Shown: positions 1-13,127 of the stretch, one piece after another
How the letters are laid out: the number at the start of each line of letters is the position of its first letter
How positions within the stretch are numbered: the first letter of the stretch is position 1
Origin: a virus
Taxonomy: Duplodnaviria; Heunggongvirae; Uroviricota; Caudoviricetes
IMG/VR virus record: IMGVR_UViG_2534681899_000005
Length of the DNA stretch: 13,486 nucleotides
Direction: 5' to 3' (one strand)
The notes under the pieces: model-generated
Database searches by the model: none
What the model was told of the DNA's origin: nothing
What the model saw: only the letters and a program-made list of their open reading frames with translations
Position numbers and translations under genes: made by a program

Positions 1-95
1 TTGGTGTGAACAGTCTTTCATGTTCTTTATGTATCAGTTGTCCTGTGTGGTGATTTGGTGGACTGCCCCAGGGGCCATACTTATGATGCCCGGTC
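1..95. repeat. Left copy of 95-bp terminal direct repeat
   Basis: Bases 1-95 are identical to 13392-13486. Contains CTGTGTGG and the inverted repeat GCCCCAGGGGC. The repeat is truncated by the window edge, so its true length may be larger. Confidence 0.9.
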
Positions 96-343
96 AACAT
101 AAGTGTCGATAAAATCAACGGGTGTTGATCTGCATATTTCCCACACATGAGAGGAAATCAGAGCAAAGAGAGAGGAGAGAGGTTTGCTAGTCAAATTAAA
201 GGATACTCCCACACAAGACAGTCTCATACATCAGATTTGAAGGGTGCTTATCTTTCCCCAGACTTGGCCCTTGACCTGTTGGGATTTCCTACAACCCCTT
301 TCAGTCATACTCAGGCACCACACCCCGGTAAATATTACCGCAC

Positions 344-541
344 TAACCTGTAAAGAATTTTCACACCTGTGTGTTTATACAGTCATACTCTCCTGTTTTG
401 CAGTCATTGCACCCATGATACACAGCCCCTAACCTGTCAAAATATTTTACTACCCCACCAATAATACGGCCCATACCTGTAAAATATTTTTACTACTACC
501 TGTCAAAATCTTTTACTACTACCTGTAAAAATATTTGACAC
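344..541. repeat. Iteron array: five direct 22-24-bp repeats, three contiguous; candidate replication origin
   Basis: Copies at 344-366, 430-453, 474-496, 497-519 and 520-541 share the core ACCTGT[A/C]AAAAT(A/C)TTTTACTAC; AT-rich context. Confidence 0.7.
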
Positions 542-1109
542 TAATAGATAAAGTAATAGACCACACAATAAATCCCCCCTAACCCCCCCAGGGGGAATGG
601 GGAGGGATCAGAGAGTGGGGAAGGTTTTCTAAGGGAAAAGCTTAACCCACAAATGAAAGCCTAAAGAGCATTAGTGACTCTTTAGGCAATCTGTGTGTGG
701 GTCACTCTGTGACTTTAGCTATACAGCTAAACCGACTACATCGGCCTGTGTGTGGGGTGACAATGTATTCCATACATGACACGTCACCCAATTGTGTGTG
801 GTCCGGCGAATGCGTCAGCATGAGGCCCACATGTGGACCGCTGCCGAAAGCTTGCCAGCGCCGGAAGGAGGCAGCAAAGAGTCTCCCGCGCTCATGTGTG
901 GGCGTATACGTAAGATATACATTCATAAATCCAATTCTAGGCACCTAAATGGCCTTCTGGCTGCATTAACCTGTGTGAGTAGTGCAATTGCATTACCTGA
1001 CCTCTAAATCGCGTTAGAATCGATTTTAGAGCGCTTAAGGCAAAAAGTGCCCTCCCTCCCTTGTGGGCTTGCTTGTACCTATAGCACACCTAAATGATAA
1101 TAATTCTCA

Positions 1110-1138
1110 TTGACAATTGGTTGACAATATGATAAGAT
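1110..1138 (+). promoter_or_regulatory. Candidate sigma70 promoter (TTGACA-17-TAAGAT), with a second TTGACAAT copy at 1121
   Basis: -35 TTGACA at 1110-1115 and -10-like TAAGAT at 1133-1138; TTGACAAT is duplicated 11 bp downstream. Confidence 0.3.
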
Positions 1139-1173
1139 TATAAATAGGGGGAGAAACAGATCCGGAGGTCAAT

Positions 1174-1323
1174 GTGGAAATTACTGATGCAATAGCGATC
1201 ATCAACCTGGCTGTACTGTGGTGCGGTGTTGCCTACATAGCCGGAGTAACTGCAATCGACAATCTTGAAGAAAAAATGATAGATAAATACAAAAAGATTG
1301 TTGACAATTTGACGAATGTCTGA
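1174..1323 (+). CDS. Hypothetical small hydrophobic peptide (49 codons, GTG start)
   Basis: GGAGG at 1164-1168 lies 5 nt before GTG 1174. The translation VEITDAIAIINLAVLWCGVAYIAGVTAIDNLEEKMIDKYKKIVDNLTNV has one predicted TM helix and a charged tail. Below the ORF-track size cutoff and overlaps the downstream promoter. Confidence 0.2.
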   Translation: MEITDAIAIINLAVLWCGVAYIAGVTAIDNLEEKMIDKYKKIVDNLTNV

Positions 1324-1329
1324 TAAAAT
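1301..1329 (+). promoter_or_regulatory. Strong sigma70-type promoter for the rightward Rep operon (TTGACA-17-TAAAAT)
   Basis: -35 TTGACA at 1301-1306, 17-bp spacer, -10 TAAAAT at 1324-1329; 125 bp upstream of the first operon ATG; near-identical to the minus-strand promoter at 10859-10887. Confidence 0.55.
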
Positions 1330-1454
1330 ATAAAGCATAGGGTAATTCTCATCATAGTGAATTTCCTTTAGTAGACTGGCGGGGGCTTGTATTAAGTTCC
1401 CGTTTCTTTTTAACCGTATATCGCACAGGCGGTGAGCTGACAGGAGATTGAATC

Positions 1455-1664
1455 ATGGCTAAAACCGGACCGATAAGCCAGCTTGTAAACTGGACTACTG
1501 ACGAAATCGTCGAGAACGTGCTTAAAGGTAACTTTCGAAAAACTTCCGTTTATGCATTTATTCGTAAACACAAAGGAGAATATCCACACATTGAAGCGGC
1601 AATAGAAAAACTTAACTTTATCCGTATTGAGCGTGAGCTGGAAAGATATAAACATCTACTTTGA
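1455..1664 (+). CDS. Small (69 aa) putative DNA-binding regulator
   Basis: ATG preceded by AGGAGA RBS; stop overlaps the TTG at 1661 of the next gene; basic, with an HTH-like segment (TTDEIVENVLKGNFRKTSVYAFIRKH). Family not recognised. Confidence 0.5.
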   Translation: MAKTGPISQLVNWTTDEIVENVLKGNFRKTSVYAFIRKHKGEYPHIEAAIEKLNFIRIERELERYKHLL

Positions 1665-1684
1665 TAAATAATTGTGAGGGAATT

Positions 1685-2590
1685 ATGGCAAACAATAAAC
1701 TGGGGGCACATTTCACCCCAATTTTTAAACGTTTCATCAAGTATAATTTTGAAAATCCAATTGCAAAAACTACAACAGGCAAAGAGAGATTTAATTTAAA
1801 TGCGACGGAATTGATAATTTACGGGGAAATGGTTGGCTTTCATTTAAACGGCAACGAAATATTCATCTCGGAGCAGACCTTAGCAGATGATTGGGATTTT
1901 TCAAGACCAACGATTATTAAAGCTATTAAATCTCTAGTAAATGCTGGGATTATTTCTAAAGATAACCGGAAAGGCAAATCTAACATTTACAAACTGTTAA
2001 TTACACCTGAGCAGTTTGATAAAATGTGCGATGAGCAGGGTATTAAAACCTTAGACAGTGTGGGAGACAGCAAAGAGGCACCTGCTACACAGGCCCAAGA
2101 TAATCAACAGGAAGCCCCAAAAAAAGCCGCACAGCAAGCTAAAAAGGCTAAAGTAGTGCAATTGCCTACCCAAGACACTAAAGCGCCTCAAATTAACGCT
2201 GTTAGTGACAAGCCACGCCGGGGCCGTCCTGTGAAAGATGCAACAGATGGAGGCTGGATCGCCCTGGGTGAGAGTGAGGCTAAAGGCATAATGCGATCAC
2301 TGTGGGAAAGCAAATACAAAGATTTAAACAAACGTCGCCCGATCCTTTTGTCAAAGATTCAGGAGGATTTTTACACCGCAGAAGAGGTAAGCCAACATAA
2401 AGGGAAAAGAGAGGGTGAAATCTGGAAACCGGAAGAATACTGGCATTTAACCAGACCTGTGTTTATTTTTGCAAATAAGCTTATTGGGATGGGATTTGAA
2501 ATATTGTTAGATAAAACCTGCGGAGATTATCCCGAAATATTGTGGAGAAATGTTAGAAAAAATAAAAAAGGCATTTTAGAGTTTAAATAA
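1685..2590 (+). CDS. Putative replication initiator / replisome-organiser-like protein (winged helix plus AT-hook)
   Basis: ATG 1685 with GAGGGA RBS (the track uses in-frame TTG 1661). N-terminal winged-helix-like region (..FISEQTLADDWDFSRPTIIKAIKSLVNAGIISKD..), P/Q/A/K-rich linker with AT-hook KPRRGRPVK, C-terminal domain. Iteron array lies about 1.1 kb upstream. Confidence 0.45.
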   Translation: MANNKLGAHFTPIFKRFIKYNFENPIAKTTTGKERFNLNATELIIYGEMVGFHLNGNEIFISEQTLADDWDFSRPTIIKAIKSLVNAGIISKDNRKGKSNIYKLLITPEQFDKMCDEQGIKTLDSVGDSKEAPATQAQDNQQEAPKKAAQQAKKAKVVQLPTQDTKAPQINAVSDKPRRGRPVKDATDGGWIALGESEAKGIMRSLWESKYKDLNKRRPILLSKIQEDFYTAEEVSQHKGKREGEIWKPEEYWHLTRPVFIFANKLIGMGFEILLDKTCGDYPEILWRNVRKNKKGILEFK

Positions 2591-2638
2591 AAACACTGAT
2601 AATCTTATTTTTTTACAGTATTCTAAAGGAAATTTAAA

Positions 2639-2785
2639 ATGTATGGCGATTTTGATTATTACCTGGAAAAGGAAAAATATTTTGAAGATGAACTATCACA
2701 ACATTTTTCATATTGGGAAGAATATTGTGGTTGGTTAGCTGAAGATCCAGCAGATGAAGAAAACGATTCTGACATCCCTTATTAA
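2639..2785 (+). CDS. Hypothetical small acidic protein (48 aa)
   Basis: ATG 2639 with AAAGGA RBS 8 nt upstream; translation MYGDFDYYLEKEKYFEDELSQHFSYWEEYCGWLAEDPADEENDSDIPY; below the track cutoff, found by hand. Confidence 0.3.
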   Translation: MYGDFDYYLEKEKYFEDELSQHFSYWEEYCGWLAEDPADEENDSDIPY

Positions 2786-2889
2786 TTAATATCCCCTGTT
2801 ATCCCCAAATAAACTAAATAAACTAATTACATATAGAACTAGAACTAGATTGATTTCTCTTTAATGTTAAATTGACTGGAGAATTAATC

Positions 2890-3375
2890 ATGTTCAAATC
2901 TGATCTTTCTGATTCCCAATTTGAAAAACTGGTAGCACTGCAGAAATATCTTCCCAGTGATGATCAACCAACACGACAGGCCAAACACTTATTAGTCGAG
3001 GGCTTTACCCCTGAATTCGTGGCGGAATATACAGGCGTTAAACTTGAGAAAGTCCAAAAACTATATAATGAATCCTGGAATCCACGGTGTCGAGTTCCCC
3101 TCAGTGTCTATAACGACACAGACAGAGATAGAAATGTCTTCGAAGATCGCCGCCGCAAATCTCTTTTAATGTGGAATTGCGGGATGAATATTGAAGAGAT
3201 AGCAAAAGAATTAAAAGTAACCTGCTTTCATATCTGGGGTTTGTTGAGTGAAATCCTGCCACGTAAGGAGCTTAATCAACGTTTGCCTAAGCCCGGTAGT
3301 CGTGCTTATCGCGAATTTATATTCATCTACCGCCGCCATAGCAATAAAGTCCGGAAAGCAATGCAGCGCAAATAG
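2890..3375 (+). CDS. Hypothetical DNA-binding protein with two HTH-like segments (161 aa)
   Basis: ATG 2890 with TGGAGA RBS (the track ORF starts at TTG 2872). Segments GFTPEFVAEYTGVKLEKVQKLY and GMNIEEIAKELKVTCFHIWGLL resemble resolvase or sigma-region-4 type HTH; basic C-terminus. Confidence 0.5.
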   Translation: MFKSDLSDSQFEKLVALQKYLPSDDQPTRQAKHLLVEGFTPEFVAEYTGVKLEKVQKLYNESWNPRCRVPLSVYNDTDRDRNVFEDRRRKSLLMWNCGMNIEEIAKELKVTCFHIWGLLSEILPRKELNQRLPKPGSRAYREFIFIYRRHSNKVRKAMQRK

Positions 3376-3433
3376 CTTATAGCCTTCACATATGCCGCAA
3401 GTTATTGATTCTGCCGTCCGGTAAATATGCCGG

Positions 3434-3907
3434 ATGGCTCATATAAATTTTAAGGAATTCCAAATGTCTCAAATCGCTAAATTATTATCCCAGGTTATCA
3501 AAGCTATCGACGCTGAAGATTCAAAAGTTCGCCAGGATCTTTTAGATGGCAAGTTTACCAACACCCTGGCATTTACCCGTGACAAAGAGCACTTCTTAAA
3601 GCACAGACATCACGCTTTCGCTGAATGCAAGTCCGCTAATGGTGATGTTTTCTATGTCGATTTGGTGGTTATGGCATGCCGGTTGTGGATGATTCAGGAC
3701 CTTATGCGCCAACACGGTGATGATCCTCTTATCAGCATGTGGAACAGCGCCCAGGATGGCTTTGTGATTGCTGCCTTATCTAAATCCATGATTGAGGCAG
3801 AAGGCGCAAGCCTTCAGAACATGGCAGATCTCTTTGAAATAAGCGTAGGAATGATGCAGACCATGCTGCAGGCGGTGAAGCCTCTCAAACTGGTTAATCT
3901 TGATTAA
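3434..3907 (+). CDS. Hypothetical protein (157 aa; alternative start ATG 3464)
   Basis: Long ORF co-directional with neighbours; ATG 3464 has a TAAGGAA RBS; no recognisable motifs. Confidence 0.5.
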   Translation: MAHINFKEFQMSQIAKLLSQVIKAIDAEDSKVRQDLLDGKFTNTLAFTRDKEHFLKHRHHAFAECKSANGDVFYVDLVVMACRLWMIQDLMRQHGDDPLISMWNSAQDGFVIAALSKSMIEAEGASLQNMADLFEISVGMMQTMLQAVKPLKLVNLD

Positions 3908-3922
3908 ACTATTGATAAATAA

Positions 3923-3947
3923 GCACTCCCCATTTTTTGGGGGGTGC
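3923..3947. other. Intergenic GC hairpin (GCACTCCCC-ATTTTTT-GGGGGGTGC)
   Basis: 9-bp stem with one G.T pair and a T-rich loop, between the 157-aa and 129-aa genes; no downstream U-tract on the plus strand. Confidence 0.4.
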
Positions 3948-3961
3948 ATCAATGAGAGGAT

Positions 3962-4351
3962 ATGCCTATGAATATTGAAGAAATGATAGTTGAATTCGAA
4001 GAGGGTGATTTCCTGGAGGATGGGGAGTTTAGTTACTCCCGTTTTAAACAGGCGTTATTTAGCAGCGAGGATAAACCACACGTTAGTGATCTTAACGACG
4101 ATGATTTATGTCGCTGGGTATGCACCCGCTTATATGAGGATGGAAAATATACAGGCCAAAACTTTCCAAATCTCTATTTCAAAGCACAAACATTTGAGGA
4201 AGGGCAAAGAGTGAAAAACCTGGTCGATAAAATGCTTTCAGCCGGATATTTGCATAAAGAATTATTAAATCCTAAAGCTGAAAGCAAGCGCCATTATATT
4301 TTTGTGTGGACTATTGGCGATAAGTGTCCACTAAGACGCAAAGGAAAATGA
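3962..4351 (+). CDS. Hypothetical acidic protein (129 aa; probable start ATG 3968)
   Basis: GAGAGGA RBS upstream; sits two genes before the tape-measure-like gene, so a tail-assembly-chaperone-like role is possible but unproven. Confidence 0.5.
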   Translation: MPMNIEEMIVEFEEGDFLEDGEFSYSRFKQALFSSEDKPHVSDLNDDDLCRWVCTRLYEDGKYTGQNFPNLYFKAQTFEEGQRVKNLVDKMLSAGYLHKELLNPKAESKRHYIFVWTIGDKCPLRRKGK

Positions 4352-4352
4352 T

Positions 4353-4589
4353 ATGAATACCTACGAAAAGATTTATCAAAAACTGGTTAAGGACTCCGAA
4401 GAGACGCACGAAGGGGTGACAGTAGGTCACCTGCCAGAGGCAGCGAAAGAGGGGGCCACCATTATTAAAAGTTGCTCCCACACAGAAGGCCTCTCAATCG
4501 AAGAGCTTGCGGAGAAATATAATATTGATAAAGAGGCCCTGAAAAGGGCTATTTCATTATCAAAATCTTTAAGACAGGGCGAGGTGTAA
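4353..4589 (+). CDS. Hypothetical protein (78 aa)
   Basis: ATG 1 nt after the preceding stop, AAGGA RBS; stop 3 nt before the tape-measure-like ATG, so tightly coupled. Confidence 0.5.
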   Translation: MNTYEKIYQKLVKDSEETHEGVTVGHLPEAAKEGATIIKSCSHTEGLSIEELAEKYNIDKEALKRAISLSKSLRQGEV

Positions 4590-4592
4590 GAG

Positions 4593-6719
4593 ATGGCAAT
4601 GAAGGAAGTCGCCAGACTAACAAACGTTATTTACTGGGATTCTGATAAATCCAGCTGGCGAAAAGAAGTTAAACGGCTTGAGGATTATAAAAAATCCTGG
4701 AAGAAAGCCACCGACGATATAGCTAAAGCGGATTTTAAATCGAATCAGGCTGTGCTCAGAACACAAAGAACACGCGCTAAGGTGGAAGAGCAGATTGCCA
4801 GAGCACAGAAGAAACAACGTGCTCAGGCTGTCAGCCGTCTGACCGGGGGCAATAATCCGGAGCTCTCCTCTATGCGCAAGTTCTACCAACAACAAGCCAG
4901 AGAAGCCGCCAGACAACAAAAACTGTTAGATCGTAGTGTTGGAGATGTTCAGCACAGAAAAGCACGTGTAGGGGCCAACAGTGCACGAATCAGCAGCATG
5001 TTTGATGGCTCCCTGGTTGCTCAGTTCCAATCCAGAATTCAGAGAGTTAATGCTGATTATGCTAAAGGGGCTATTAACCTGCAGACCTATAATCAGAAAA
5101 TGGCCCGACTCAGAGCTGAAATGAAGATGGCAACAGCAGAGGCCGGAAAATTTCAGAGCAGACTAGACAAAGCTGCGGTAGCAGGATCTAAGCTGCATGA
5201 CAACCTGGGGAAACTCAACTCCACACTTGGCAAGATAGCTATTGGCCTTACTGCCGCTGGCTGGGGTGTTCAGCGTGCTGTTAGTGGTGCTATGGGTAGC
5301 CTTGCAGATCGCAACAGTGCCTACTTCGGTTTGATGGCACAGAACAAGGATGATAAAGCCAAGACTGATCAGCAGATGGCTTTTATCAAGAACACAGCCT
5401 ACACCTACGGGATGGATGAGCGGGAGATGCAAGGTGGCTACATGCGCTTTGCTGCAGCTACCCCCACCATGAAGGAATCTGATAAGCAGGCTCTTTTTGA
5501 GGCTATGGCTATTAAAGGTCGCTCAGTGGGTGCTACTGGCGAGCAACAGAACAGGGCGCTTGTTGCGGTCCAACAAATGGCTTCAAAGGGAAAAGTTATG
5601 GCAGAAGAGCTGCGGGGCCAACTGTCAGAAGCCTTTGCAGGCTCACAACAGGATTTTCAACAGGCCGCTATTGATGCCGGAATCATCAAGAATGCCCAGG
5701 AATTCGATAAAGCCCTTAAAGATGGCAAAATCACCCTGGATAAGCTTCTCCCTTCTTTGGTGAAAATCTGGGGTGCTGCAAAAGAAACTAAAGCTTTTGC
5801 TGAATCCATGAAACAGCCAGAAGTAGCAATGCAGCGCATGAAAAACAGCTTTAACGAGCTGGCGATCCAGTTTATGGGTGTTGTAGATCCTGCAGATGGC
5901 GTTATTAGCTTATCTGAATCTCTGATCTCCATCTTCGAAGACCTCACTACTGATATGGACGGCAGCGGGAGCGCGGCAAAACAGTTTGGTGAGGCAGTCG
6001 GTGCTGCCATGCGGGAGATCATGTATTGGGTAGGCTTCGCTAAGGGATATATTGAGGTCAAGGCTAAAGAGTTCGGCATGACCGGATCAGAGGTTGGCGA
6101 GCTTATCGGGAAACTGGTAGTCGGCTTAGCTGGTCTGAAAGTTATTACCACACTGCTTTCCCCTCTAACCGGATTTGTTTCACTTGTCACCCAACTGATT
6201 TCTCTGATAGGCAAGATTCCAGGTCTGGGCAATCTCGTTAAGGGTGCAGGTGGTGCAGTCGCTGGAAGCCCAACAACAGCATTAGCCGCTGGCAGTGCCG
6301 CAGGTGTGGGTGTTGGTGTCGCTGGCGCACTGGGCGCTAAGACGGTAGGTGAGAAGTTCAGAGGATGGATGCAAAGCAAGGCTGATCAGTTCGGGGAGTG
6401 GGCTAAATCTAAAGGCCTGCTTAGCGATGAACAGGACGCTATGACCAAACCGGGGGCCTATAACCATAGCTACATCAACAAGGGAGCTTCTTTTAATCCA
6501 TATCCAACCATTAGCCCATCACGTCCTACTCCTAGCACTGGTACGGCTATTCAGAATGGTGGCTATCAACCTGCTCAGGTTAATGTGGTGCCTCAAGGTG
6601 AGATTTCCGGCAAATGGGAGATAACCATCGATGAGGGGGGAATTGCCAGGGTGATTCAGAAGGAAGTCAGCGATCAGTTGGATTGGAAAGCCACACAGGA
6701 ATCTAATCAGCTTTTCTAA
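4593..6719 (+). CDS. Phage tail tape-measure-like protein (708 aa)
   Basis: GAGGTG RBS then ATG 4593. N-terminal about 200 aa is Q/R/A/K-rich and coiled-coil-like; central ..GATGEQQNRALVAVQQMASKGKVMAEELRGQLSEAFAG.. resembles the conserved tape-measure core; C-terminal Gly/Ala-rich hydrophobic segments; no Walker A or catalytic motif seen. Confidence 0.6.
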   Translation: MAMKEVARLTNVIYWDSDKSSWRKEVKRLEDYKKSWKKATDDIAKADFKSNQAVLRTQRTRAKVEEQIARAQKKQRAQAVSRLTGGNNPELSSMRKFYQQQAREAARQQKLLDRSVGDVQHRKARVGANSARISSMFDGSLVAQFQSRIQRVNADYAKGAINLQTYNQKMARLRAEMKMATAEAGKFQSRLDKAAVAGSKLHDNLGKLNSTLGKIAIGLTAAGWGVQRAVSGAMGSLADRNSAYFGLMAQNKDDKAKTDQQMAFIKNTAYTYGMDEREMQGGYMRFAAATPTMKESDKQALFEAMAIKGRSVGATGEQQNRALVAVQQMASKGKVMAEELRGQLSEAFAGSQQDFQQAAIDAGIIKNAQEFDKALKDGKITLDKLLPSLVKIWGAAKETKAFAESMKQPEVAMQRMKNSFNELAIQFMGVVDPADGVISLSESLISIFEDLTTDMDGSGSAAKQFGEAVGAAMREIMYWVGFAKGYIEVKAKEFGMTGSEVGELIGKLVVGLAGLKVITTLLSPLTGFVSLVTQLISLIGKIPGLGNLVKGAGGAVAGSPTTALAAGSAAGVGVGVAGALGAKTVGEKFRGWMQSKADQFGEWAKSKGLLSDEQDAMTKPGAYNHSYINKGASFNPYPTISPSRPTPSTGTAIQNGGYQPAQVNVVPQGEISGKWEITIDEGGIARVIQKEVSDQLDWKATQESNQLF

Positions 6720-6792
6720 TGCTGGAAGATAGCGCAGCTTTACTGATATTGTGATCAAAATCAATAAGTTAGCCCGACCGGATAAACTCCAG

Positions 6793-6828
6793 GCAAGAAA
6801 AAAGCCCCTAAGTGTTAACAAAGGGGCT
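6793..6828 (-). terminator. Intrinsic terminator, clearest on the minus strand (possibly bidirectional)
   Basis: Stem AGCCCCT (6803-6809) / AGGGGCT (6822-6828) with a 12-nt loop. On the minus strand it is followed by TTTTTTCTT (complement of 6793-6802); on the plus strand only by CTCTTCTCC. Confidence 0.5.
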
Positions 6829-6849
6829 CTTCTCCGGTATCCTTTTGAT

Positions 6850-6964
6850 GCGGGGCGAACCTGCTAACAAAAATCAACCTCTCGCGAGACTAATGTTAGC
6901 AGGTTGCCGGAAGGTAAGTCAACTCCGGCCTATAAACCTTAAAGCGACTATAAAATCGCCCCGC
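6850..6964. other. Highly structured element with nested perfect inverted repeats (candidate structured RNA or protein-binding site)
   Basis: 9-bp outer stem GCGGGGCGA (6850-6858) / TCGCCCCGC (6956-6964) encloses a 10-bp stem CCTGCTAACA (6860-6869) / TGTTAGCAGG (6895-6904), whose loop holds the palindrome TCTCGCGAGA, plus hairpin GCCGGA / TCCGGC (6906-6929). Confidence 0.4.
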
Positions 6965-7246
6965 CAATTGTGATGATCCGACCTTTGAGGCGGGTCCGGT
7001 GCCCAGGGGGTGCAGTGATGCACAAACCAGGCAACGATAAACAGGCTAACAGTGATAGCGGCGCTCAATCAGCGCACTAAATCCTAACCAGTCCGGGAAA
7101 GAGGCTGGCTCTATCGACCGCTCATGCACGGGACAATGCATACCTGATAAAGGATTCTCACAAGGGACCAATCGCGAGAAAAGAAGTGGAAAGGGGCTGA
7201 TTTGTGGTGTATCACTACGGCCTCAAAAGAACACTATTGTCTTTTT

Positions 7247-7705
7247 TCAGCCTCTCCCCACATTTGACCAGTATTTGATTGCACCGATCAAATCATCATA
7301 GTGGCGCATTGCATCATTGAAGCCTTTATAGCTTGCCCATTGTGGGGAAACCTTGTTATTGCTGAATTGCCCACTAATCAGGATAGTCTCCAAAATGTCG
7401 GCGTATCGCTTGCCAATTCGCTTTCTGACGGCCTCAGAGCTCCCACCCTTTACGATTGCATTAATCAGGGCTTTTGTGTGTCTCAGGCTCTCATAGAGCA
7501 TTGCAGCGTGGGCAGATTCCATAAAGGAGCGCTTAGGCAGATCACCCCACCCCTCAGAATGAATTGCTGCCAGTGTGGCGTAATTCAGGCCGCTATAGTG
7601 TTTCCCGTCATCCCAGCCAACCGCTACACCTTCCATCTGTGAGAGCTCTTTATGCAGCTTATCCATCATGCGCTTGTCTATGGTGCAACGGACTTTCGGA
7701 CTCAT
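7247..7705 (-). CDS. Phage virion morphogenesis / head-tail joining protein (HK97 gp10 / Mu G-like), 152 aa
   Basis: Start overlaps the upstream stop by ATGA (7702-7705); motif ..NYATLAAIHSEGWGDLPKRSFMES.. resembles the Y-A-x-H-x-x-G...P-x-R-x-F signature of this family, recalled from memory. Confidence 0.4.
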   Translation of the reverse strand: MSPKVRCTIDKRMMDKLHKELSQMEGVAVGWDDGKHYSGLNYATLAAIHSEGWGDLPKRSFMESAHAAMLYESLRHTKALINAIVKGGSSEAVRKRIGKRYADILETILISGQFSNNKVSPQWASYKGFNDAMRHYDDLIGAIKYWSNVGRG

Positions 7706-8514
7706 TTGTTGATCTCCGTGATGTCATCGAGCAACATGTTGGCCTTATCAATCATCGTTTCGTGGAACTCATTCGACACAACAGACTTATCACCTGCGGC
7801 AATCTTTCCCGCTGCCTCTCCCTGTGCATATTCCCCGCGATGCTTAGCCCTGGTTGATTTCGTAGCAGCGTTGCCAGCGTTGCTACCCTCTTTAGCACTG
7901 TTAACAGCGCCCTTTTGCTGTGTTTTATTCACCTTCTTACTGTTAGTGAAAACTCCGGCATTTTCGACCATCTTCACCTTGAAGGTGCGGAATTCTTCAA
8001 AAGTGCAATCAATAGTGATGCAGTCACCAGAGGAAGAGCTACGCTTAACTTCACATTTCGTCATGATGAAGTTCTCAAGGAGTCCGGCATCTTCACTTAC
8101 CAGGCTAACTAGCTGGCGCTTGTCTCTCATTTCCATAAGTGCCTGAACAGCGGCAGCAGGGCGCATAGATTCACGGGGATTATCTGGATCAGTGTTCCGG
8201 TCGATGTAGTTCTCTTTCCGGATGATATGAGGGGAAGAGGTAATAATGCCCGTAAAGCTGACAGATTTATCTTTAATGACGGCATGGTCTGACATGGTGG
8301 TGCCATCCTCGACCGCATAGCTCGATTTCTCGACAGGGAACGAATAGCTGACATCAGAGATTGAGTCAAAGAAGATAGCCACGTTATCGGTATAGTTGAA
8401 GCCATCCATTATATTTTTGTTTTGTGAATATCCCCCACACATAACAGTGAATGCAGGAGATCTCGATTCAGCTTGTTTTGCAGCTGTCAGAGCATCACTA
8501 GCCATATTAAACAT
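7702..8514 (-). CDS. Hypothetical protein, possibly phage structural (270 aa)
   Basis: Long ORF in the capsid operon, translationally coupled to the next gene; C-terminal half is low-complexity K/A/G/N-rich; no family recognised. Confidence 0.45.
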   Translation of the reverse strand: MFNMASDALTAAKQAESRSPAFTVMCGGYSQNKNIMDGFNYTDNVAIFFDSISDVSYSFPVEKSSYAVEDGTTMSDHAVIKDKSVSFTGIITSSPHIIRKENYIDRNTDPDNPRESMRPAAAVQALMEMRDKRQLVSLVSEDAGLLENFIMTKCEVKRSSSSGDCITIDCTFEEFRTFKVKMVENAGVFTNSKKVNKTQQKGAVNSAKEGSNAGNAATKSTRAKHRGEYAQGEAAGKIAAGDKSVVSNEFHETMIDKANMLLDDITEINK

Positions 8515-8610
8515 GCCTCCAAAATGAATCTTTTCGTTGCCCTGCTTAAAATCTGCAGAAAATACAGGGCAGTTATTCGTTAGAATCGCTTATAGCTCTT
8601 CCCGAGAGCG

Positions 8611-8862
8611 TTATTTTGCAAAACGATTATGCGCATTCAGGGCTTTTTTGCGGTCCTGGGCTTGTTTGCGTGCAATAAAATGTTCGAAAGTCTCGGCCCA
8701 GGTGCATTTATTATATTCACGGTATTTATGCATAGCCTGGCGGCTAACGTCATAGCAGGCGGCAAATGTGGAGATACGCAGGAATTCCGGCAGATCCTCG
8801 TCATCGATATGGATAATATCAAAAGGCACGTCGTCACGGTCGCCGTATAAAACAATTTTCAT
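8611..8862 (-). CDS. Hypothetical small protein (83 aa from ATG; track ORF extends to GTG at 8871)
   Basis: GAGGTG RBS 6 nt before the ATG (complement of 8860-8862); acidic N-terminus, basic C-terminus with a possible HTH (FAACYDVSRQAMHKYRE). Confidence 0.4.
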   Translation of the reverse strand: MKIVLYGDRDDVPFDIIHIDDEDLPEFLRISTFAACYDVSRQAMHKYREYNKCTWAETFEHFIARKQAQDRKKALNAHNRFAK

Positions 8863-8975
8863 AAAAGACACCTCAAAAACTTAAGACGGGGATAATAAAA
8901 AAGGGAAGAGGGAAAGACCTATCCCCGATCTCTCACCTCTTCCCTTTGCTTTTATTTGGCCTTCGAAGAAGGACC

Positions 8976-10022
8976 TTATTTAGCCTTGGCTTTTGCCAGA
9001 GCAGCGGCGGCGGAGTTACTAACACTCACTTTAACCACAACTTCAGGCATCATGTTCATGAAAGCATAAGAGGATTCAATGAAGATTTCTCGTTTACCTC
9101 TGGACTCTTCCATATACATGAAAGCTTCACGTGCAGCGCCGTTTGCAAGCTTCAGGTTGCGAGCGCAAGGGCCGAAAAATTGAGTATAAACGCCCACCAT
9201 ATCGCCTAACGCATGCGGCTGGAACTGTGGGACCAGATAAGCAGTATTCTCTGGCAGACTATCCATTTGCACCACACGCAGAGCTAAGCCTGGAATGCGG
9301 AAAGTCGGGAAGCCCGGCAGAATATCCTCAGGGAACATCAGACCTTTATCGGTAATATTCTGATTGCCGAACAACAGCACTTTTCGCAACAGTTCATCAG
9401 TCTGAATTGCAGCAAAGAGTTCAGCACGGCAGAACAGGGTGAAACCACGCAGAGCACGAACGACACCACGCTGTTTAACCTTGCTCAGTGCAACCAGGTC
9501 CTGCAGTTGTTTGAGGATGTCTTGAGCTAGATCCACTTCAGAGGTGGACTGTTCCACGCCCAGCAGTTCGCACACATTCAGTTCTTTACCCTTGGTGAGG
9601 ATAATTTTGTTCTCAAAGAGAGCAAGCTGGCGTGCTTCTTCGTGGGTCTGGCGTAAGCCTTCACCCAACTGAATAACACGACGAGCGGTTACAGACTCTA
9701 AATTCTCTTCGGAATCTTTGCCCGGAACACGGATACCTTGCCAGTCAGAAGGATAAATAGCACTTGATGCGGCAGTGAATGCCATATCACCCGTGCCCGT
9801 TTCACGCTCATCTGCGGTAATGGTAGCCATCTGTTCACCGTAGCGCGGATACTGACCGAAAGCGGATTGTTTCACCTGGCGAACTTTGTCATATTCAAAT
9901 TTAAAGGTATTGCACAGAGCAGTAGTGTTGAAGATATCCATTGCTGAAATAATCTGGTTATCCAGCGGGATATCTTTAATCAGACCACACAGATCGCGAA
10001 CTTCGAATTCTTTCTTAGCCAT
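8976..10022 (-). CDS. Putative major capsid protein, lambda gpE-like (348 aa)
   Basis: ATG (complement of 10020-10022) with AAGGAGG RBS 6 nt upstream; the track ORF starts at in-frame TTG. Size and C-terminal segment (..KREIFIESSYAFMNMMPEVVVKV..) resemble lambda E-family capsid proteins as recalled; follows a ~110-aa gene as in lambda D-E. Not searched. Confidence 0.45.
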   Translation of the reverse strand: MAKKEFEVRDLCGLIKDIPLDNQIISAMDIFNTTALCNTFKFEYDKVRQVKQSAFGQYPRYGEQMATITADERETGTGDMAFTAASSAIYPSDWQGIRVPGKDSEENLESVTARRVIQLGEGLRQTHEEARQLALFENKIILTKGKELNVCELLGVEQSTSEVDLAQDILKQLQDLVALSKVKQRGVVRALRGFTLFCRAELFAAIQTDELLRKVLLFGNQNITDKGLMFPEDILPGFPTFRIPGLALRVVQMDSLPENTAYLVPQFQPHALGDMVGVYTQFFGPCARNLKLANGAAREAFMYMEESRGKREIFIESSYAFMNMMPEVVVKVSVSNSAAAALAKAKAK

Positions 10023-10033
10023 TTTCAACCTCC

Positions 10034-10369
10034 TTATTGTGCAACACGCAAATCGCCATTGCTGGCAGCAATAACAGCGGCTAAGCCGTCTTTATCCACG
10101 TAGGCCGGATTGATATAACAGCCCTTGTTGGCAACAACGATAAAAGCGTCGCCAACTTCAGCACGTTCTACAACCAGCAGCGGAGTTTTATCTGTGTGCG
10201 TTGCTTTAACGAAGGTCTCAACCTCGCCAGCCTCAGTTACCACAACAACAGTGCCAGCCGGAATCTCAGCTTTAACTTTGTTTTTAATTTCAACGTCGCG
10301 AATACTAAATTGCTCATCTGCGGCGTATGAAATGATGTGTCCGCGTGTGCGGATAGTCATATCTTTCAT
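10034..10369 (-). CDS. Putative head decoration protein, lambda gpD-like (111 aa)
   Basis: AGGTGA RBS then ATG (complement of 10367-10369); beta-rich small protein directly upstream of the capsid candidate; first gene after the promoter. Confidence 0.35.
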   Translation of the reverse strand: MKDMTIRTRGHIISYAADEQFSIRDVEIKNKVKAEIPAGTVVVVTEAGEVETFVKATHTDKTPLLVVERAEVGDAFIVVANKGCYINPAYVDKDGLAAVIAASNGDLRVAQ

Positions 10370-10667
10370 TTGATCACCTGCGATTTAAATTAACTCCCCT
10401 CAAAGAGTTCCGGTATAACCTCTCAAACCACGACAGGCTCGGGCCGAAAAGTTATGCCGGAAATCTAAAGGGAAATTGATACAAGGAGAGGGAGATAGCC
10501 CCGCACCGTCCAAGCGGGGGCTATTCCACATGGGGAAACCGACAACAGTCGGATGATAGTTCACAGTATGATTACGGTTACTAGAGAGCACTATCACGAA
10601 AGGCACTCCCCCGGATCAGTTCAGGCTGCGGTCACATCAGCGGGGAAATACCTTTCGGGATAGCTAC

Positions 10668-10701
10668 CCACACAGAAAACCCGCAAAAGAAAACTGTGTG
10701 G
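10668..10701. promoter_or_regulatory. Inverted repeat CCACACAG-N18-CTGTGTGG in the capsid-operon leader
   Basis: Perfect 8-bp arms at 10668-10675 and 10694-10701; lies in the roughly 480-nt leader between promoter and decoration gene; overlaps TGTGGATAA. Confidence 0.35.
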
Positions 10702-10850
10702 ATAACTAGCCCAATAGGAGAATTAATCGACCACTCAACGATGATCAGGGTAGTGTTATTTATAAGGCGGCACCGCTACCTGGTCGCCTTTACTTTGGAG
10801 GAAAATACGGCAAATCAAGATCTTCTCAAATGATATTGATTCCATACTAT

Positions 10851-10870
10851 ACTGTATATTATATCAGTAT
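10851..10870. promoter_or_regulatory. LexA-box-like palindrome (SOS operator candidate)
   Basis: Minus strand reads TACTGATATAATATACAGTA, which keeps CTG-N10-CAG with an AT-rich spacer (consensus TACTGTATATATATACAGTA); overlaps the -10 of the capsid-operon promoter. Confidence 0.5.
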
Positions 10871-10887
10871 TCTCTCAAATTGTCAAC
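10859..10887 (-). promoter_or_regulatory. Consensus sigma70 promoter for the leftward capsid operon (TTGACA-17-TATAAT)
   Basis: Minus strand reads gtgTTGACAatttgagagaatactgaTATAATat: -35 at 10882-10887, -10 at 10859-10864, exact 17-bp spacer. Confidence 0.6.
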
Positions 10888-11193
10888 ACCCTGATTATAT
10901 AAATTCTAATAATTAGCGTGGTAACTGTATTTTCAGACCTCTATCAATCCCATCAATACGTCACCCCACCCTTTAGATGCATACATCCGACCTACTTTGT
11001 AGGCTTGGCGTACTGCCAAGGTCGCAGCTATGCGACTCCTATCTATCACCACTTTATAAAGCTTGATAGATATCTTTTGATCAATATCAATGTTTTCCAG
11101 GGATTTACCCGGCTATAGTTCGAATCAAGGAAGGGGAGCATTGATAGCACCCAACCGAGCAAACAAATCAACTTCTCGCAAAAGGTGATAGTT

Positions 11194-11316
11194 ATGGGTA
11201 TCAAGAACAGTGCCAGCGCATGGCAAAAGGCCAGGTTTCATCACCCACACATTGTTAAGGCAATTGAGGTGGTTGGAGTTTTAGCCCTGATGTTAGCTCT
11301 GTGTGTGGAGGTGTGA
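11194..11316 (+). CDS. Hypothetical small hydrophobic peptide (40 aa)
   Basis: AAGGTGA RBS 6 nt before the ATG; translation MGIKNSASAWQKARFHHPHIVKAIEVVGVLALMLALCVEV has a C-terminal TM-like segment; its leader shares a 15-nt motif with the 173-aa gene leader. Confidence 0.25.
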   Translation: MGIKNSASAWQKARFHHPHIVKAIEVVGVLALMLALCVEV

Positions 11317-11380
11317 GATAGGCAAAGGAGGCAAAGCATTTTTTAATAGGTCTGGCAGTCTTAGATTTTGTATTAATCAT

Positions 11381-11423
11381 CATTGAGCGGAGTTTATGAA
11401 CAGCATTGAGAGGAGTTTATGAC
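11381..11423 (+). repeat. Tandem duplication of a translation-initiation region, with an 8-codon upstream ORF coupled by ATGA
   Basis: CATTGAGCGGAGTTTATGAA (11381-11400) is followed by a near-identical second copy (11404-11423, CATTGAGAGGAGTTTATGAC); mini-ORF 11396-11422 (MNSIERSL) stops at TGA overlapping the main ATG at 11419. Confidence 0.45.
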
Positions 11424-11679
11424 GGGGGCTAAAGATATCAGGAGACTGAGGGAAGAGCTGATAGCTGAAATTAAAGCTAAGGCAAAGCAAATGGAGATAG
11501 CCGCACAAATGGATGTAGCGGAACAGATGTACAAGATGGTTGAAGAGGGAACACCACGACAGGTTATCGCTAAAACCTTCGGTGTGGGGATCGCCACCGT
11601 GCACAGAAGGCTGAAAGCCTATGCCGACTACCACAATATCGAGAGAAAGGAGGATGGGAGATTTAAGAAGAATAAATAG
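11419..11679 (+). CDS. Small HTH DNA-binding protein (resolvase/Fis-type HTH), 86 aa
   Basis: GAGAGGAG RBS; coiled-coil-like N-terminus; C-terminal GTPRQVIAKTFGVGIATVHRRLKAY matches the Hin/resolvase-type HTH pattern; no recombinase catalytic domain. Confidence 0.5.
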   Translation: MTGAKDIRRLREELIAEIKAKAKQMEIAAQMDVAEQMYKMVEEGTPRQVIAKTFGVGIATVHRRLKAYADYHNIERKEDGRFKKNK

Positions 11680-11736
11680 TAGGAACAGTCCAACAGGTTA
11701 TTAACTAAATTCAACTTCTCGCAAAGGGGTACCATT

Positions 11737-12258
11737 ATGTTATTTCAGAAAGATAAAGAATCAGTAAATAAAAGGCTTTTTAAAGAACTGGTAAAAATGT
11801 TCTTTCAGTACACTGCAGCGTTTTTGATAGCCGGGCCTTGGTTAATGGCTATCTGTTTTTACCCTGCTACCTTGTTTATTGGCAGTAGCAAGTTCGGCGA
11901 TGGCCCGTTTCATGTGGATATTGGTTTTATAGATTCTCTCCTGATCCGTCCTATAAATGCTGTTCTCAATGCTTTCTACTTCCCCACTAGTCTAGAGGGG
12001 TGGGCGGTAACCTGGGGTGTTTTAGGCTTAGCATATGTATATTGGTTGGTTGGCTTTTTGTGGGGTGCAATCTGTGCTCTCCTCGATATTGATACAGGAT
12101 CAAGCCGTAGGAGTGGTGGTAATAATAGCGGAGCGGGTGTATATGCACATGTAGGCACCAGGGGAGCTAGTGTTACCGCAGGTACCCGATTCGCTGGCGG
12201 CTGGCTGAGCATAGGCAAACGCGGCGTTAGTTGGAGAAAAAGCAAAAAACTGTTCTGA
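11737..12258 (+). CDS. Hypothetical membrane protein (173 aa, 2-3 predicted TM helices)
   Basis: ATG 11737 with a leader containing TCAACTTCTCGCAAA; hydrophobic segments (AAFLIAGPWLMAICFYPATLFIG; GWAVTWGVLGLAYVYWLVGFLWGAICALL); Gly/Ser/Arg-rich tail; followed by a terminator. Confidence 0.5.
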   Translation: MLFQKDKESVNKRLFKELVKMFFQYTAAFLIAGPWLMAICFYPATLFIGSSKFGDGPFHVDIGFIDSLLIRPINAVLNAFYFPTSLEGWAVTWGVLGLAYVYWLVGFLWGAICALLDIDTGSSRRSGGNNSGAGVYAHVGTRGASVTAGTRFAGGWLSIGKRGVSWRKSKKLF

Positions 12259-12265
12259 CCTACCA

Positions 12266-12292
12266 GGGGGGCCATCACGGCCCCTTTTTATT
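12266..12292 (+). terminator. Rho-independent terminator
   Basis: GC stem GGGGCC / GGCCCC with loop ATCAC, followed by TTTTTATTTAT; 8 nt after the stop at 12258. Confidence 0.75.
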
Positions 12293-12366
12293 TATCCCTT
12301 ATTTACACTCCTTTCAGTCCTGATCATCACTCCCTACGGTAATGAGCAATTAACCCCTATTTAAGG

Positions 12367-12408
12367 GGTATTTAATGGGTATTTAATGCCTATTTATTGA
12401 TTTAATCC
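12367..12408. repeat. 11-bp tandem repeats (GGTATTTAATG x2 plus degenerate copies)
   Basis: GGTATTTAATG at 12367-12377 and 12378-12388, then CCTATTTATTG and ATTTAATCC; preceded by CCCCTATTTAAGGGG; related palindrome GGTATTAATACC at 12871-12882. Confidence 0.5.
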
Positions 12409-13099
12409 GTTTTATGCCACAACCGCCCGGTTGACAGAGTAAGAGAGAGGGTGTAACCCTTTTTCGTAAAACCAATAAAATCAATAGCTTAGCTCAATTG
12501 GCCTTTTCTCTGTTTTTGTCAAATTTAACATGCCCTCAAAAACTGCAAAATCTGGCTGCAAGATTATCTGCAGCTGGATTTCTTACACCTCAATTTGTGG
12601 TATCACCCTGACTAGTTTGTGCATAAAATGAACAGTTTTTAACATTTCCTATTCACCTGGTAACCACACAAAAAGCTAAAAACGAGGCACAGATAATCTT
12701 AGAGGCCTGTTTTCTTGTTATCACTCTGGGAACGTCGTAGAAGTGATTTTGATGAAAGACGGCCTACCCTATTACACCCCCATTTTTTGTTATCACAATT
12801 GCATCCTGTGCGGTATATGACTATGTGCTGAAAGCGGTCTCAGGTGTGGGTGTCAGAAATATCCATTAGCGGTATTAATACCCGTCAGATGTTCGTCTGA
12901 GGTGCCAGGCAGGCGCTCCCCTACCTCCCCTTTTTCTTCTAACAATTCTCAAATATCACACCACTGCCCACCACGTTGCTATTATGTTAATTCTTAAGCT
13001 TTGCTTTATGTTGTGCACATTATTTATTCAGGTGCGTGTACGTAAATTCTGGGCCTCCTTATCACGATTTTTAAATCAGATTTTGTAGTGCGCTTTATT

Positions 13100-13127
13100 A
13101 GTGTAGATAAGATCTATTATGTTAAAT
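13100..13127 (+). promoter_or_regulatory. Candidate Xer recombination site (dif/psi-like)
   Basis: AGTGTAGATAA-GATCTA-TTATGTTAAAT: right arm is identical to the E. coli dif XerD arm as recalled; 6-bp centre resembles pSC101 psi (GATCCA); left arm is degenerate versus GGTGCGCATAA (5 of 11). Confidence 0.35.

What the first reader, a model, noticed from the sequence alone, without database searches (positions are those of the whole stretch)
1..95. Exact 95-bp direct repeat at both window termini
The two copies are identical and coincide exactly with the window edges. This fits three scenarios: a circular molecule written with overlapping ends, direct terminal repeats of a packaged linear genome, or attL/attR duplication from site-specific integration. 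Each implies a different lifestyle. The repeat carries CTGTGTGG and a GCCCCAGGGGC inverted repeat, so it may be a functional site rather than just duplicated target.
Basis: seen in the sequence. Interest (0 to 1): 0.5.

Follow-up and report, generated by a model that had tools for sequence, protein, structure and literature searches.

The report
Assembly overlap closing a circular plasmid
The identical 95 bases at the two ends of the window are what is left when a circular 13.4-kb E. coli plasmid is written out as a line with overlapping ends, so the repeat itself is ordinary, although the plasmid it closes carries phage-like genes and looks worth a separate study.

Summary
Bases 1-95 and 13392-13486 are identical and sit exactly at the window edges. 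The repeat is not a biological feature.

- **What the window is:** one complete 13,391-bp unit of a circular E. coli plasmid family. Closed circular records of 13.2-13.7 kb are 91-96% identical to it.
- **Single copy in relatives:** in every full-length relative that retains the junction region (about 25 fetched), the sequence across the junction is continuous and the 95-mer equivalent occurs once per unit, inside a non-coding region.
- **Same artefact elsewhere:** sister assemblies carry their own exact end overlaps at unrelated positions. Their lengths track the source: 30 nt in Logan contigs, 55 and 77 nt in SPAdes-style NODE or scaffold contigs, and none in the NCBI records fetched.
- **No integration or packaging signs:** there is no integrase, terminase, portal or tRNA. 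None of 5,426 complete E. coli genomes has a chromosomal copy. The one integrated copy found is cut at about 1039/1062, not at 1/95.
- **Proposed functional sites:** the CTGTGTGG copy inside the repeat is conserved in 0 of 6 aligned relatives. The GCCCCAGGGGC palindrome is broken without compensation in 3 of 8.

Seen in passing: the plasmid encodes diverged homologues of four rV5-like phage structural proteins, shares short structured non-coding modules with those phages, and is about 15-fold enriched in CCACACA. It may be an undescribed plasmid-borne phage satellite.

The parts
1..95 (.). Left copy of the 95-nt terminal overlap. It is the genuine single-copy sequence of the plasmid's non-coding region.
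   Evidence: It is single copy and interior in relatives.
13392..13486 (.). Right copy of the overlap. It is a redundant rewrite of bases 1-95 created by linearising a circular assembly and should be trimmed.
   Evidence: Relatives read ...TTATCGGCGTG|TTGGTGTGAAC... and ...GATGCCCGGTC|AACATAAGTG... continuously, with one copy.
1..13391 (.). One complete unit of a circular E. coli plasmid.
   Evidence: It is 91-96% identical over 79-93% of its length to closed circular plasmids of 13,238-13,697 bp. In 1,347 of 1,661 sample blocks, the longest contig carrying the exact 152-aa protein is 10-20 kb.
432..542 (+). Four 22-nt iteron-like direct repeats (ACCTGTCAAAATATTTTACTAC, spacing 43, 23 and 23 nt). 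This is the probable replication origin.
   Evidence: The region varies among relatives together with the rep gene. The origin function is inferred.
1661..2590 (+). Replication initiator (winged-helix HTH_36 / DnaD_N-like; several PHROG replication-initiation families).
   Evidence: HTH_36, E = 2.4e-6; phrog_270 at 7.6e-10, phrog_678 at 9.1e-10.
12260..13391 (.). Left part of a 2.6-kb ORF-poor region that runs across the junction to about 1450. The 95-mer lies inside it.
   Evidence: Positions 12519-13391 plus 1-27 are 91-100% conserved across 8 relatives in 50-nt bins.
4593..6719 (+). Tape measure protein, 26% identical to the tape measure protein of rV5-like phages.
   Evidence: TMP_3; phrog_5255, E = 9.5e-194.
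7247..8514 (-). Two genes: a tail-completion/neck-like protein (7247-7705) and a Dit-like 'tail tube initiator' (7702-8514).
   Evidence: They are 45% and 51% identical to MaxTheCat bas57_0011 and bas57_0019.
8976..10028 (-). Major capsid protein.
   Evidence: phrog_29, E = 3e-21; 25% identity to the rV5-like MCP, E = 2e-11.
831..891 (+). 61-nt non-coding element shared with 121 rV5-like phage genomes.
   Evidence: It is 85-87% identical, and a 6-bp stem shows 3 compensatory pair changes between plasmid and phage.

Best explanation
The window is a complete circular plasmid of Escherichia coli (unit 13,391 bp) that an assembler output as a linear string whose last 95 bases repeat its first 95. 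The molecule has one copy of this sequence. It lies in a conserved non-coding region about 340 bp upstream of the iterons of an iteron/Rep replicon. The position of the cut is arbitrary, and the length of the overlap most likely reflects the assembler's word size (inferred: k = 95, or k-1 = 95). Nothing is cut, duplicated or recombined at these coordinates in the cell.
For: Shown:
(1) Five PLSDB and seven RefSeq closed circular E. coli plasmids of 13.2-13.7 kb match the window at 91-96% identity over 79-93% of its length. Each record starts at a different point (window positions of about 8141, 9146, 7106, 84 and others). None has a terminal overlap.
(2) A junction built with a single 95-mer (400 + 95 + 405 nt) aligns as one continuous block in all five fetched records, with one copy per unit. 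This includes the three head-to-tail units of the 39.6-kb record. The residue-level alignment shows both repeat boundaries are ordinary interior sequence in 8 of 8 relatives.
(3) Independent assemblies of the same family carry their own exact end overlaps elsewhere. The lengths follow the source:
- 30 nt in Logan contigs, at window positions of about 3524, 2138, 26, 12255, 1283 and 1752;
- 55 nt in a SPAdes NODE contig (about 4970-5024) and in an ENA scaffold (about 1062);
- 77 nt in a SPAdes NODE contig (about 4460-4530);
- 0 nt in the NCBI records fetched, both draft and complete.
(4) The element is almost always a stand-alone contig of plasmid size. The exact 152-aa protein is on record in 1,661 sample blocks, and the longest contig is 10-20 kb in 1,347 of them. 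MCP clusters have longest contigs of 13.4-14.3 kb.
(5) The plasmid has a Rep protein and iterons. It has no integrase, terminase, portal or tRNA.
Against: No reads are available, so the topology of this particular molecule is inferred from relatives. As far as I know, 95 is not a default word size of the common assemblers, so the origin of that exact length is a guess. Three of about 24 full-length assemblies are cut inside window 1-95 (the window itself, L015 at about 26, and NZ_CP020521.1 at 84/85). That is more than the roughly 0.2 expected from uniform cutting. However, the three cuts are at different bases, other cut points recur exactly between assemblies (3938 twice, 12536-12538 twice, about 2615 twice), and 8 further contigs gave no cut there.
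Confidence: 0.95

Rival explanations
1. The repeat is a true direct terminal repeat of a linear, packaged genome. On this view the element is encapsidated, for example by a helper phage, as a 13,486-bp linear DNA with 95-bp terminal redundancy.
For: The plasmid encodes a capsid protein and tail proteins related to rV5-like phages, so packaging at some stage is conceivable. Three of about 24 assemblies are cut within window 1-95.
Against: There is no terminase or portal gene. Closed long-read and RefSeq records are circular with one copy. The boundaries at 1 and 95 are not marked by anything conserved. The other assemblies' overlaps lie elsewhere and match assembler word sizes. The family is absent from IMG/VR viral contigs. 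From general knowledge, a short-read graph collapses a terminal repeat, so contig ends would not report its position anyway.
Confidence: 0.03
2. The two copies are attL and attR, produced by site-specific integration of the element, and the window is an excised or integrated island bounded by the duplicated core.
For: Direct repeats bounding a mobile element are the classic att signature. One chromosome-sized contig (353 kb, L030) does carry the element.
Against: There is no integrase or recombinase catalytic domain, only an 86-aa HTH_7 protein, and no tRNA. The window contains no flanking host DNA. There are 0 chromosomal places in 5,426 complete E. coli genomes. The single large-contig copy is linearised at window 1039/1062, lacks 9710-12350 and abuts ISEcp1-blaCTX-M, so it is an IS-type event and not att recombination at 1/95.
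Confidence: 0.01
3. The window is a slightly over-long read-through of a plasmid multimer or concatemer (rolling-circle or recombinational), so the repeat is real DNA from the next unit.
For: A 39.6-kb record (NZ_CP043822.1) consists of three head-to-tail units.
Against: This differs from the best explanation only in bookkeeping: the monomer still has one copy. An overlap of exactly 95 nt with 100% identity is typical of graph assemblers and not of a read-through.
Confidence: 0.01

Closest known systems
Terminal word-size overlap of circular contigs from de Bruijn graph assemblers. Completeness tools call this signal 'DTR' (my knowledge: CheckV-type criteria).
   Same: The overlap is exact, sits at the very ends, closes onto a unit of the size of known closed relatives, and sister assemblies show the same artefact with 30-, 55- and 77-nt overlaps.
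   Different: An overlap of 95 nt does not correspond to a default word size that I know of. The assembler used is unknown.
Direct terminal repeats of packaged phage genomes (T7-, T5- and N4-type fixed ends)
   Same: Identical direct repeats at both ends of a linear representation.
   Different: There is no terminase or portal. The ends are not conserved landmarks. Relatives are closed circles with one copy.
attL/attR of integrative satellites and islands (P4, PICI/SaPI)
   Same: The element is small (about 13 kb) with phage-related genes, bounded in this record by direct repeats.
   Different: There is no integrase, no host flanks and no chromosomal copies. Replication is by Rep and iterons as a plasmid.
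Plasmid-state phage satellites: P4 in its plasmid mode, and pDolos of an inovirus. [quoted passage not shown]
   Same: The window is an autonomous small replicon with an incomplete set of virion genes. It shares protein homologues and short non-coding sequences with one phage group.
   Different: Mobilisation by a helper phage has not been tested. The candidate helper (rV5-like Vequintavirinae) is a large lytic myovirus. The element encodes a capsid protein together with tape measure and tube-initiator homologues, a combination I did not find described for a satellite in the literature searches run here.

Membership tests
Assembly overlap of a circular replicon | The two copies are exactly identical and coincide with the contig ends | tested here: met
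   95/95 identical, at 1-95 and 13392-13486.
Assembly overlap of a circular replicon | Independently closed relatives have one copy, continuous with both flanks | tested here: met
   single continuous junction in every full-length relative that retains the region, one per unit.
Assembly overlap of a circular replicon | Other assemblies of the same replicon show overlaps at unrelated positions, with lengths tied to the assembler | tested here: met
   30 nt (Logan), 55 and 77 nt (SPAdes-style), 0 nt (NCBI records fetched). The cut points are scattered.
Assembly overlap of a circular replicon | Reads span the closed junction with uniform depth | not testable with these tools
   No reads and no source assembly are available.
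Phage direct terminal repeats | Packaging machinery (terminase, portal) encoded, or a defined cleavage site | tested here: not met
   none among all ORFs of at least 150 aa, nor among the smaller ORFs scanned.
Phage direct terminal repeats | The same ends recur in related genomes | tested here: not met
   no relative starts at 1 or ends at 95. Two are cut elsewhere inside 1-95.
Phage direct terminal repeats | Doubled read depth and read-start pile-ups at the repeat | not testable with these tools
   No reads are available.
attL/attR of an integrated element | Integrase or recombinase encoded next to one end | tested here: not met
   only an 86-aa HTH_7 protein, with no catalytic domain.
attL/attR of an integrated element | Host DNA outside the repeats, with chromosomal copies or empty sites in related strains | tested here: not met
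   0 chromosomal places in 5,426 genomes; one large-contig copy in 1,661 sample blocks, cut at 1039/1062 next to ISEcp1.
Iteron-type plasmid replicon | Rep initiator plus an array of directly repeated binding sites | tested here: met
   4 x 22 nt at 432-542; Rep at 1661-2590. Binding of Rep to the repeats is inferred.
Phage satellite | Incomplete virion gene set with homologues in a specific helper group | tested here: met
   MCP, tape measure, tube initiator and neck protein are 25-51% identical to rV5-like phage proteins. No homologue of the phage's portal, protease, sheath, tube or baseplate genes was detected.
Phage satellite | Carries the helper's packaging signal | tested here: inconclusive
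   61-, 60- and 52-nt non-coding modules are shared with rV5-like genomes, but their function (pac, ori, RNA) is unknown.
Phage satellite | Helper-dependent induction, packaging and transfer | not testable with these tools
   This needs infection experiments.

The most novel reading that the evidence does not exclude
The repeat is trivial, but the circle it closes may be an undescribed kind of element: a plasmid-resident satellite, or an assembly-interfering parasite, of large lytic rV5-like (Vequintavirinae) phages. It is widespread in E. coli (at least 1,661 sample blocks). It encodes its own diverged capsid, tape measure, tube-initiator and neck proteins. It shares small structured non-coding modules and a TGTGTGG-type motif with those phages. 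On this reading, the conserved non-coding region containing the junction would hold the helper-responsive replication or packaging signals.
Probability: 0.3. Interest if true: 0.7.

Novelty: not a real feature. Interest (0 to 1): 0.1.

Why it matters
For the finding itself, the practical value is limited. The record should be trimmed to 13,391 bp and treated as a complete circular plasmid. The repeat should not be read as evidence of a phage-like linear genome or of an integrated island.

The wider point is that exact end repeats in assembled contigs report topology only. They say nothing about where biological ends lie.

The replicon that emerges is more interesting than the repeat. It is a common, apparently unstudied E. 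coli plasmid that carries homologues of rV5-like phage structural genes. If it is a satellite or an anti-phage decoy, it would bear on plasmid mobility and on the use of rV5-like phages against E. coli.

Tried and rejected
- **Rfam scan of the whole window:** only a sub-threshold ctRNA hit at 6793-6833. Nothing at the repeat.
- **tRNA scan:** no tRNA.
- **Folding the 95-mer:** no better than shuffled sequence (z = -0.37).
- **Phage DNA search with the whole unit:** no match.
- **IMG/VR searches:** no match with the 31-mer or with the MCP.
- **GTDB species representatives:** no relative of the tube-initiator-like protein.
- **Exact look-up of the window's MCP:** not on record, so the source assembly could not be identified.
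- **AlphaFold2 single-sequence model of the 157-aa ORF 3434-3907:** pLDDT 41.7, unusable, so no fold search was run.
- **NCBIfam, PADLOC and extra Pfam scans of the unknown ORFs:** nothing significant.
- **Literature searches:** no description of this plasmid family. CP043822 is only listed in a strain table (PMC9729726).
- **A third apparent variant of the shared hairpin, in IMG/VR contig L027:** rejected. The 18-mer match lies inside a 482-aa ORF of an unrelated contig.
- **Possible physical DNA end at window 1-95, suggested by assembly cut points:** 8 further contigs gave no cut there, and other cut points recur for algorithmic reasons. I treat it as unproven and probably chance.
- **CCACACA as a general rV5-like promoter motif:** it is only 2.2-fold enriched genome-wide in MaxTheCat, although it is clustered in that phage's 2.5-kb non-coding region.

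Full report
**1. The observation**

The first 95 bases of the window and the last 95 (13392-13486) are identical at every position and coincide with the two edges. This cannot be chance. By my arithmetic, the expectation for an exact 95-nt repeat in 13.5 kb is about 6e-50. The next-longest direct repeats in the window are no more than 37 nt at 73% identity. Removing one copy gives a unit of 13,391 bp.

**2. What the window is**

Gene content:
- a replication initiator at 1661-2590, with an HTH_36/DnaD_N-like domain and hits to several PHROG replication-initiation families;
- four 22-nt iteron-like repeats at 432-542;
- a tape measure protein at 4593-6719;
- a tail-completion/neck-like protein at 7247-7705;
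- a Dit-like protein at 7702-8514;
- a major capsid protein at 8976-10028;
- a small HTH_7 protein at 11419-11679;
- several ORFs with no family match.

There is no integrase, terminase, portal or tRNA. About 2.6 kb running from 12260 across the junction to about 1450 has no convincing ORF.

Database comparison:
- Megablast against annotated plasmids found five E. coli plasmids. Four are 13,238-13,697 bp and one is 39,610 bp. They are 91-96% identical to the window over 79-92% of its length.
- The collection of complete E. coli genomes gave seven records. All are plasmids, and there are 0 chromosomal places in 5,426 genomes.
- All fetched records are annotated as circular.
- The 39.6-kb record is three head-to-tail units.

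**3. Testing the three scenarios**

*One copy or two.* I built the circular junction with a single 95-mer (400 nt upstream, the 95-mer, 405 nt downstream) and aligned it to the fetched records. It aligns as one continuous block in all five, with one copy per unit. A residue-level alignment of eight relatives shows ...TTATCGGCGTG|TTGGTGTGAAC... and ...GATGCCCGGTC|AACATAAGTG... running straight through both boundaries of the repeat. So positions 1 and 95 are not landmarks in any relative.

*Where other records are cut.* The closed records start at different places, corresponding to window positions of about 8141, 9146, 7106, 84 and 12716.

*Do other assemblies show the same artefact?* I collected further independent assemblies through a 31-mer scan of metagenome contigs and through exact-protein look-ups. 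Many carry their own exact terminal overlaps at unrelated positions, with lengths that depend on the source:
- 30 nt in Logan contigs, at window positions of about 3524, 2138, 26, 12255, 1283 and 1752;
- 55 nt in a SPAdes NODE contig (4970-5024) and in an ENA scaffold (about 1062);
- 77 nt in another NODE contig (about 4460-4530);
- none in the NCBI records fetched.

This is the signature of circular contigs left unclipped by graph assemblers. The window's 95 nt fits the same pattern with a different word size. That last step is inferred, because I could not identify the source assembly.

*Is the element ever integrated?* The exact 152-aa protein of 7247-7705 is on record in 1,661 sample blocks. 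The longest contig carrying it is 10-20 kb in 1,347 of them, and exceeds 20 kb in only two. One of those two is the trimer record. The other is a 353-kb contig (L030) in which the element is linearised at window 1039/1062, lacks 9710-12350 and abuts ISEcp1-blaCTX-M. That is an insertion-sequence type of event at a different site, not att recombination at the 95-mer. A 30-kb derivative (L010) is the plasmid with a strAB/tet/IS insertion between the tape measure and tail-completion genes.

**4. Is the 95-mer a functional site?**

- The first 34 nt are invariant among relatives. A variable patch and a 21-nt indel follow, and then conserved sequence.
- The CTGTGTGG copy reads CTGTGTGA or CTGTGCGG in all six relatives of the whole-plasmid alignment. 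L015, read separately, is the only relative seen to carry CTGTGTGG at this site.
- The palindrome is intact in five of eight relatives. In L001, L002 and L007 it is broken with no compensating change.
- As single-stranded DNA, the 95-mer folds no better than shuffled sequence (z = -0.37).
- It has no similarity to phage genomes.

I find no support for a site-specific function at these coordinates.

**5. A residual oddity**

Three of about 24 full-length assemblies are cut inside window 1-95: the window itself, L015 at about 26, and NZ_CP020521.1 at 84/85. Ten of the 24 are cut somewhere in the 2.6-kb non-coding region, which is 19% of the unit. Uniform cutting would give about 0.2 cuts in 1-95.

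Several things argue against a real end. The three cuts are at different bases. Identical cut points recur between unrelated assemblies elsewhere (3938 twice, 12536-12538 twice, about 2615 twice), which points to deterministic assembler behaviour. Eight additional contigs gave no further cut in 1-95. I regard a physical DNA end here as unproven and improbable, but only reads can exclude it.

**6. Verdict on the finding**

The best explanation is a circular plasmid written with overlapping ends (confidence about 0.95). True terminal repeats of a packaged linear form (about 0.03) and attL/attR (about 0.01) are not supported. The repeat is an artefact of representation and not a biological feature. 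The record should be trimmed to 13,391 bp.

**7. What I noticed beyond the finding**

The plasmid itself appears unusual and, in the literature I could search, undescribed. [quoted passage not shown]

*Protein homologues in rV5-like phages.* Four of the plasmid's proteins have homologues in rV5-like lytic myoviruses (Vequintavirinae, about 136 kb):

| Plasmid protein | Identity |
|---|---|
| Tube initiator (Dit-like) | 51% |
| Neck/tail-completion protein (vs bas57_0011) | 45% |
| Tape measure protein | 26% |
| Major capsid protein | 25% (E = 2e-11) |

No homologue of the phage's portal, protease, sheath, tube or baseplate genes was detected, so the set is incomplete.

*Shared non-coding modules.*
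- A 61-nt stretch (window 831-891) matches 121 rV5-like genomes at 85-87% identity. In the phages it lies in an intergenic region upstream of the tRNA cluster and the terminase genes. A 6-bp stem differs between plasmid and phage at three pairs, all compensated. That comparison involves only two lineages, so the evidence for structure is modest.
- Other family members share a second 60-nt phage module.
- A 52-nt double-hairpin mini-element is also shared. It sits in the phage's own 2.5-kb non-coding region, inside the 78-aa ORF before the tape measure gene (window about 4398-4449), inside the Rep gene of some variants, and as a clean insertion in an intergenic region of others.

*An over-represented heptamer.* CCACACA/TGTGTGG is the most over-represented heptamer in the plasmid.
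- There are 21 copies per unit against about 1.4 expected, and 14-19 copies per unit in the full-length relatives first fetched (L001-L008).
- 15 of the 21 copies lie in non-coding DNA.
- 12 of the 21 are conserved in at least 5 of 6 aligned relatives.
- Between 690 and 905, the motif bounds hairpin-containing modules that are present or absent among relatives exactly at motif boundaries.
- In the phage MaxTheCat the motif is only 2.2-fold enriched overall, but seven copies cluster in its 2.5-kb non-coding region.

*Interpretation.* These observations suggest that the plasmid coexists with rV5-like phages, exchanges DNA with them, and may be a plasmid-state satellite or an assembly-interfering parasite. 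This is inference. No helper dependence, packaging or transfer has been shown, and the function of the shared modules is unknown.

**8. Scores**

Interest in the finding as stated is low (0.1), and I class it as not a real feature. The most novel reading that the evidence leaves open concerns the replicon and not the repeat. I give the satellite or parasite reading about 0.3 probability, and an interest of about 0.7 if it proves true.

Noticed in passing
window 4593-6719 (+), 7247-8514 (-), 8976-10028 (-): The plasmid encodes diverged homologues of four structural proteins of rV5-like lytic myoviruses (Vequintavirinae): tape measure 26%, tube initiator 51%, neck/tail-completion 45% and major capsid protein 25% identity. 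No homologue of the phage's portal, protease, terminase, sheath, tube or baseplate genes was detected. It is a candidate plasmid-borne satellite or assembly decoy, and I found no literature on it.
   Followed up: partly
window 831-891; L023 4001-4061 (KR698074.1 75162-75222): A 61-nt non-coding element is shared at 85-87% identity with 121 rV5-like phage genomes, where it lies in a roughly 660-nt intergenic region. The stem GCTGCC/GGCAGC in the plasmid versus ACCGAC/GTCGGT in the phage gives three compensatory pairs around a conserved 25-nt loop.
   Followed up: partly
whole window; 21 sites, e.g. 141, 694, 749, 795, 895, 10668, 11245, 11302, 12664, 13183, 13342: The heptamer CCACACA/TGTGTGG occurs 21 times per unit against about 1.4 expected, making it the top enriched 7-mer. 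There are 14-19 copies per unit in relatives L001-L008, 15 of the 21 are in non-coding DNA, and 12 are conserved in at least 5 of 6 relatives. Its function is unknown. Seven copies cluster in the 2.5-kb non-coding region of phage MaxTheCat.
   Followed up: partly
window 690-905 and the homologous region of L001-L018: This region is built of hairpin-containing modules bounded by TGTGTGG(G). Whole modules are present or absent among relatives exactly at the motif boundaries. Some variants (L004, L010, L015, L036) carry an extra module that is also found in the phage intergenic region (MZ501094.1 131600-131658).
   Followed up: partly
window about 4398-4449; L001 3001-3052; L004 2752-2802; MZ501094.1 90900-90952: A 52-nt double-hairpin mini-element (..CCCGAAGGGGTGAC-N-GTCACCTGGC-N3-GCCAGTGAAAG) is shared with the phage's large non-coding region. 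It is found in frame inside the 78-aa ORF before the tape measure gene, inside the Rep gene of some variants, and as a clean intergenic insertion in others that is absent from the window near 11163. The second stem shows compensatory variants.
   Followed up: partly
window 12260-13391 plus 1-1450; window 6720-7246: About 3.1 kb of the 13.4-kb plasmid has no convincing ORF yet is as conserved as the structural genes. Position 12519 to 27 is 91-100% conserved in 50-nt bins, and 6801-7200 is 99-100% conserved. The only Rfam hit is a sub-threshold ctRNA_p42d match at 6793-6833 (-) with E = 0.25.
   Followed up: no
window 200-800 and 1600-2800: The iteron region and the rep gene are the most variable parts of the family (51-73% column identity against more than 90% for most of the plasmid). 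This is as expected if Rep and iteron specificity co-vary between incompatibility variants.
   Followed up: no
L010 (NTNY01000053.1, 30,105 bp); L030 (JAWROW010000003.1, 352,930 bp): There are derivatives of the plasmid that carry resistance genes. One has a strAB/IS/tetR-type insertion between the tape measure and tail-completion genes. Another is a partly deleted copy joined to ISEcp1-blaCTX-M at the end of a 353-kb contig, linearised at window 1039/1062.
   Followed up: partly
L003 / L029 (NZ_CP043822.1, 39,610 bp): This RefSeq 'complete plasmid' consists of three head-to-tail copies of the 13.5-kb unit, with several genes broken in the first copy. It is either a real multimer or a long-read assembly artefact.
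   Followed up: no
window 1-95 and the non-coding region 12260-1450: Assembly cut points are not uniform. Three of about 24 full-length assemblies are cut within 1-95, and 10 of 24 within the 2.6-kb non-coding region. Identical cut points also recur elsewhere (3938, 12536-12538, about 2615). This is probably assembler behaviour, but a physical cause has not been excluded.
   Followed up: partly
window 12358-12396: There are 3.5 tandem copies of an 11-nt unit (TATTTAATGGG) just downstream of the terminator-like hairpin at 12265-12287. This may be another protein-binding array.
   Followed up: no
window 11737-12258 (+): This ORF of unknown function is the most variable protein-coding gene of the family. 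It is 173-239 aa in relatives, shows 64-77% column identity, and has no hit in Pfam, PHROGs, NCBIfam or PADLOC.
   Followed up: no
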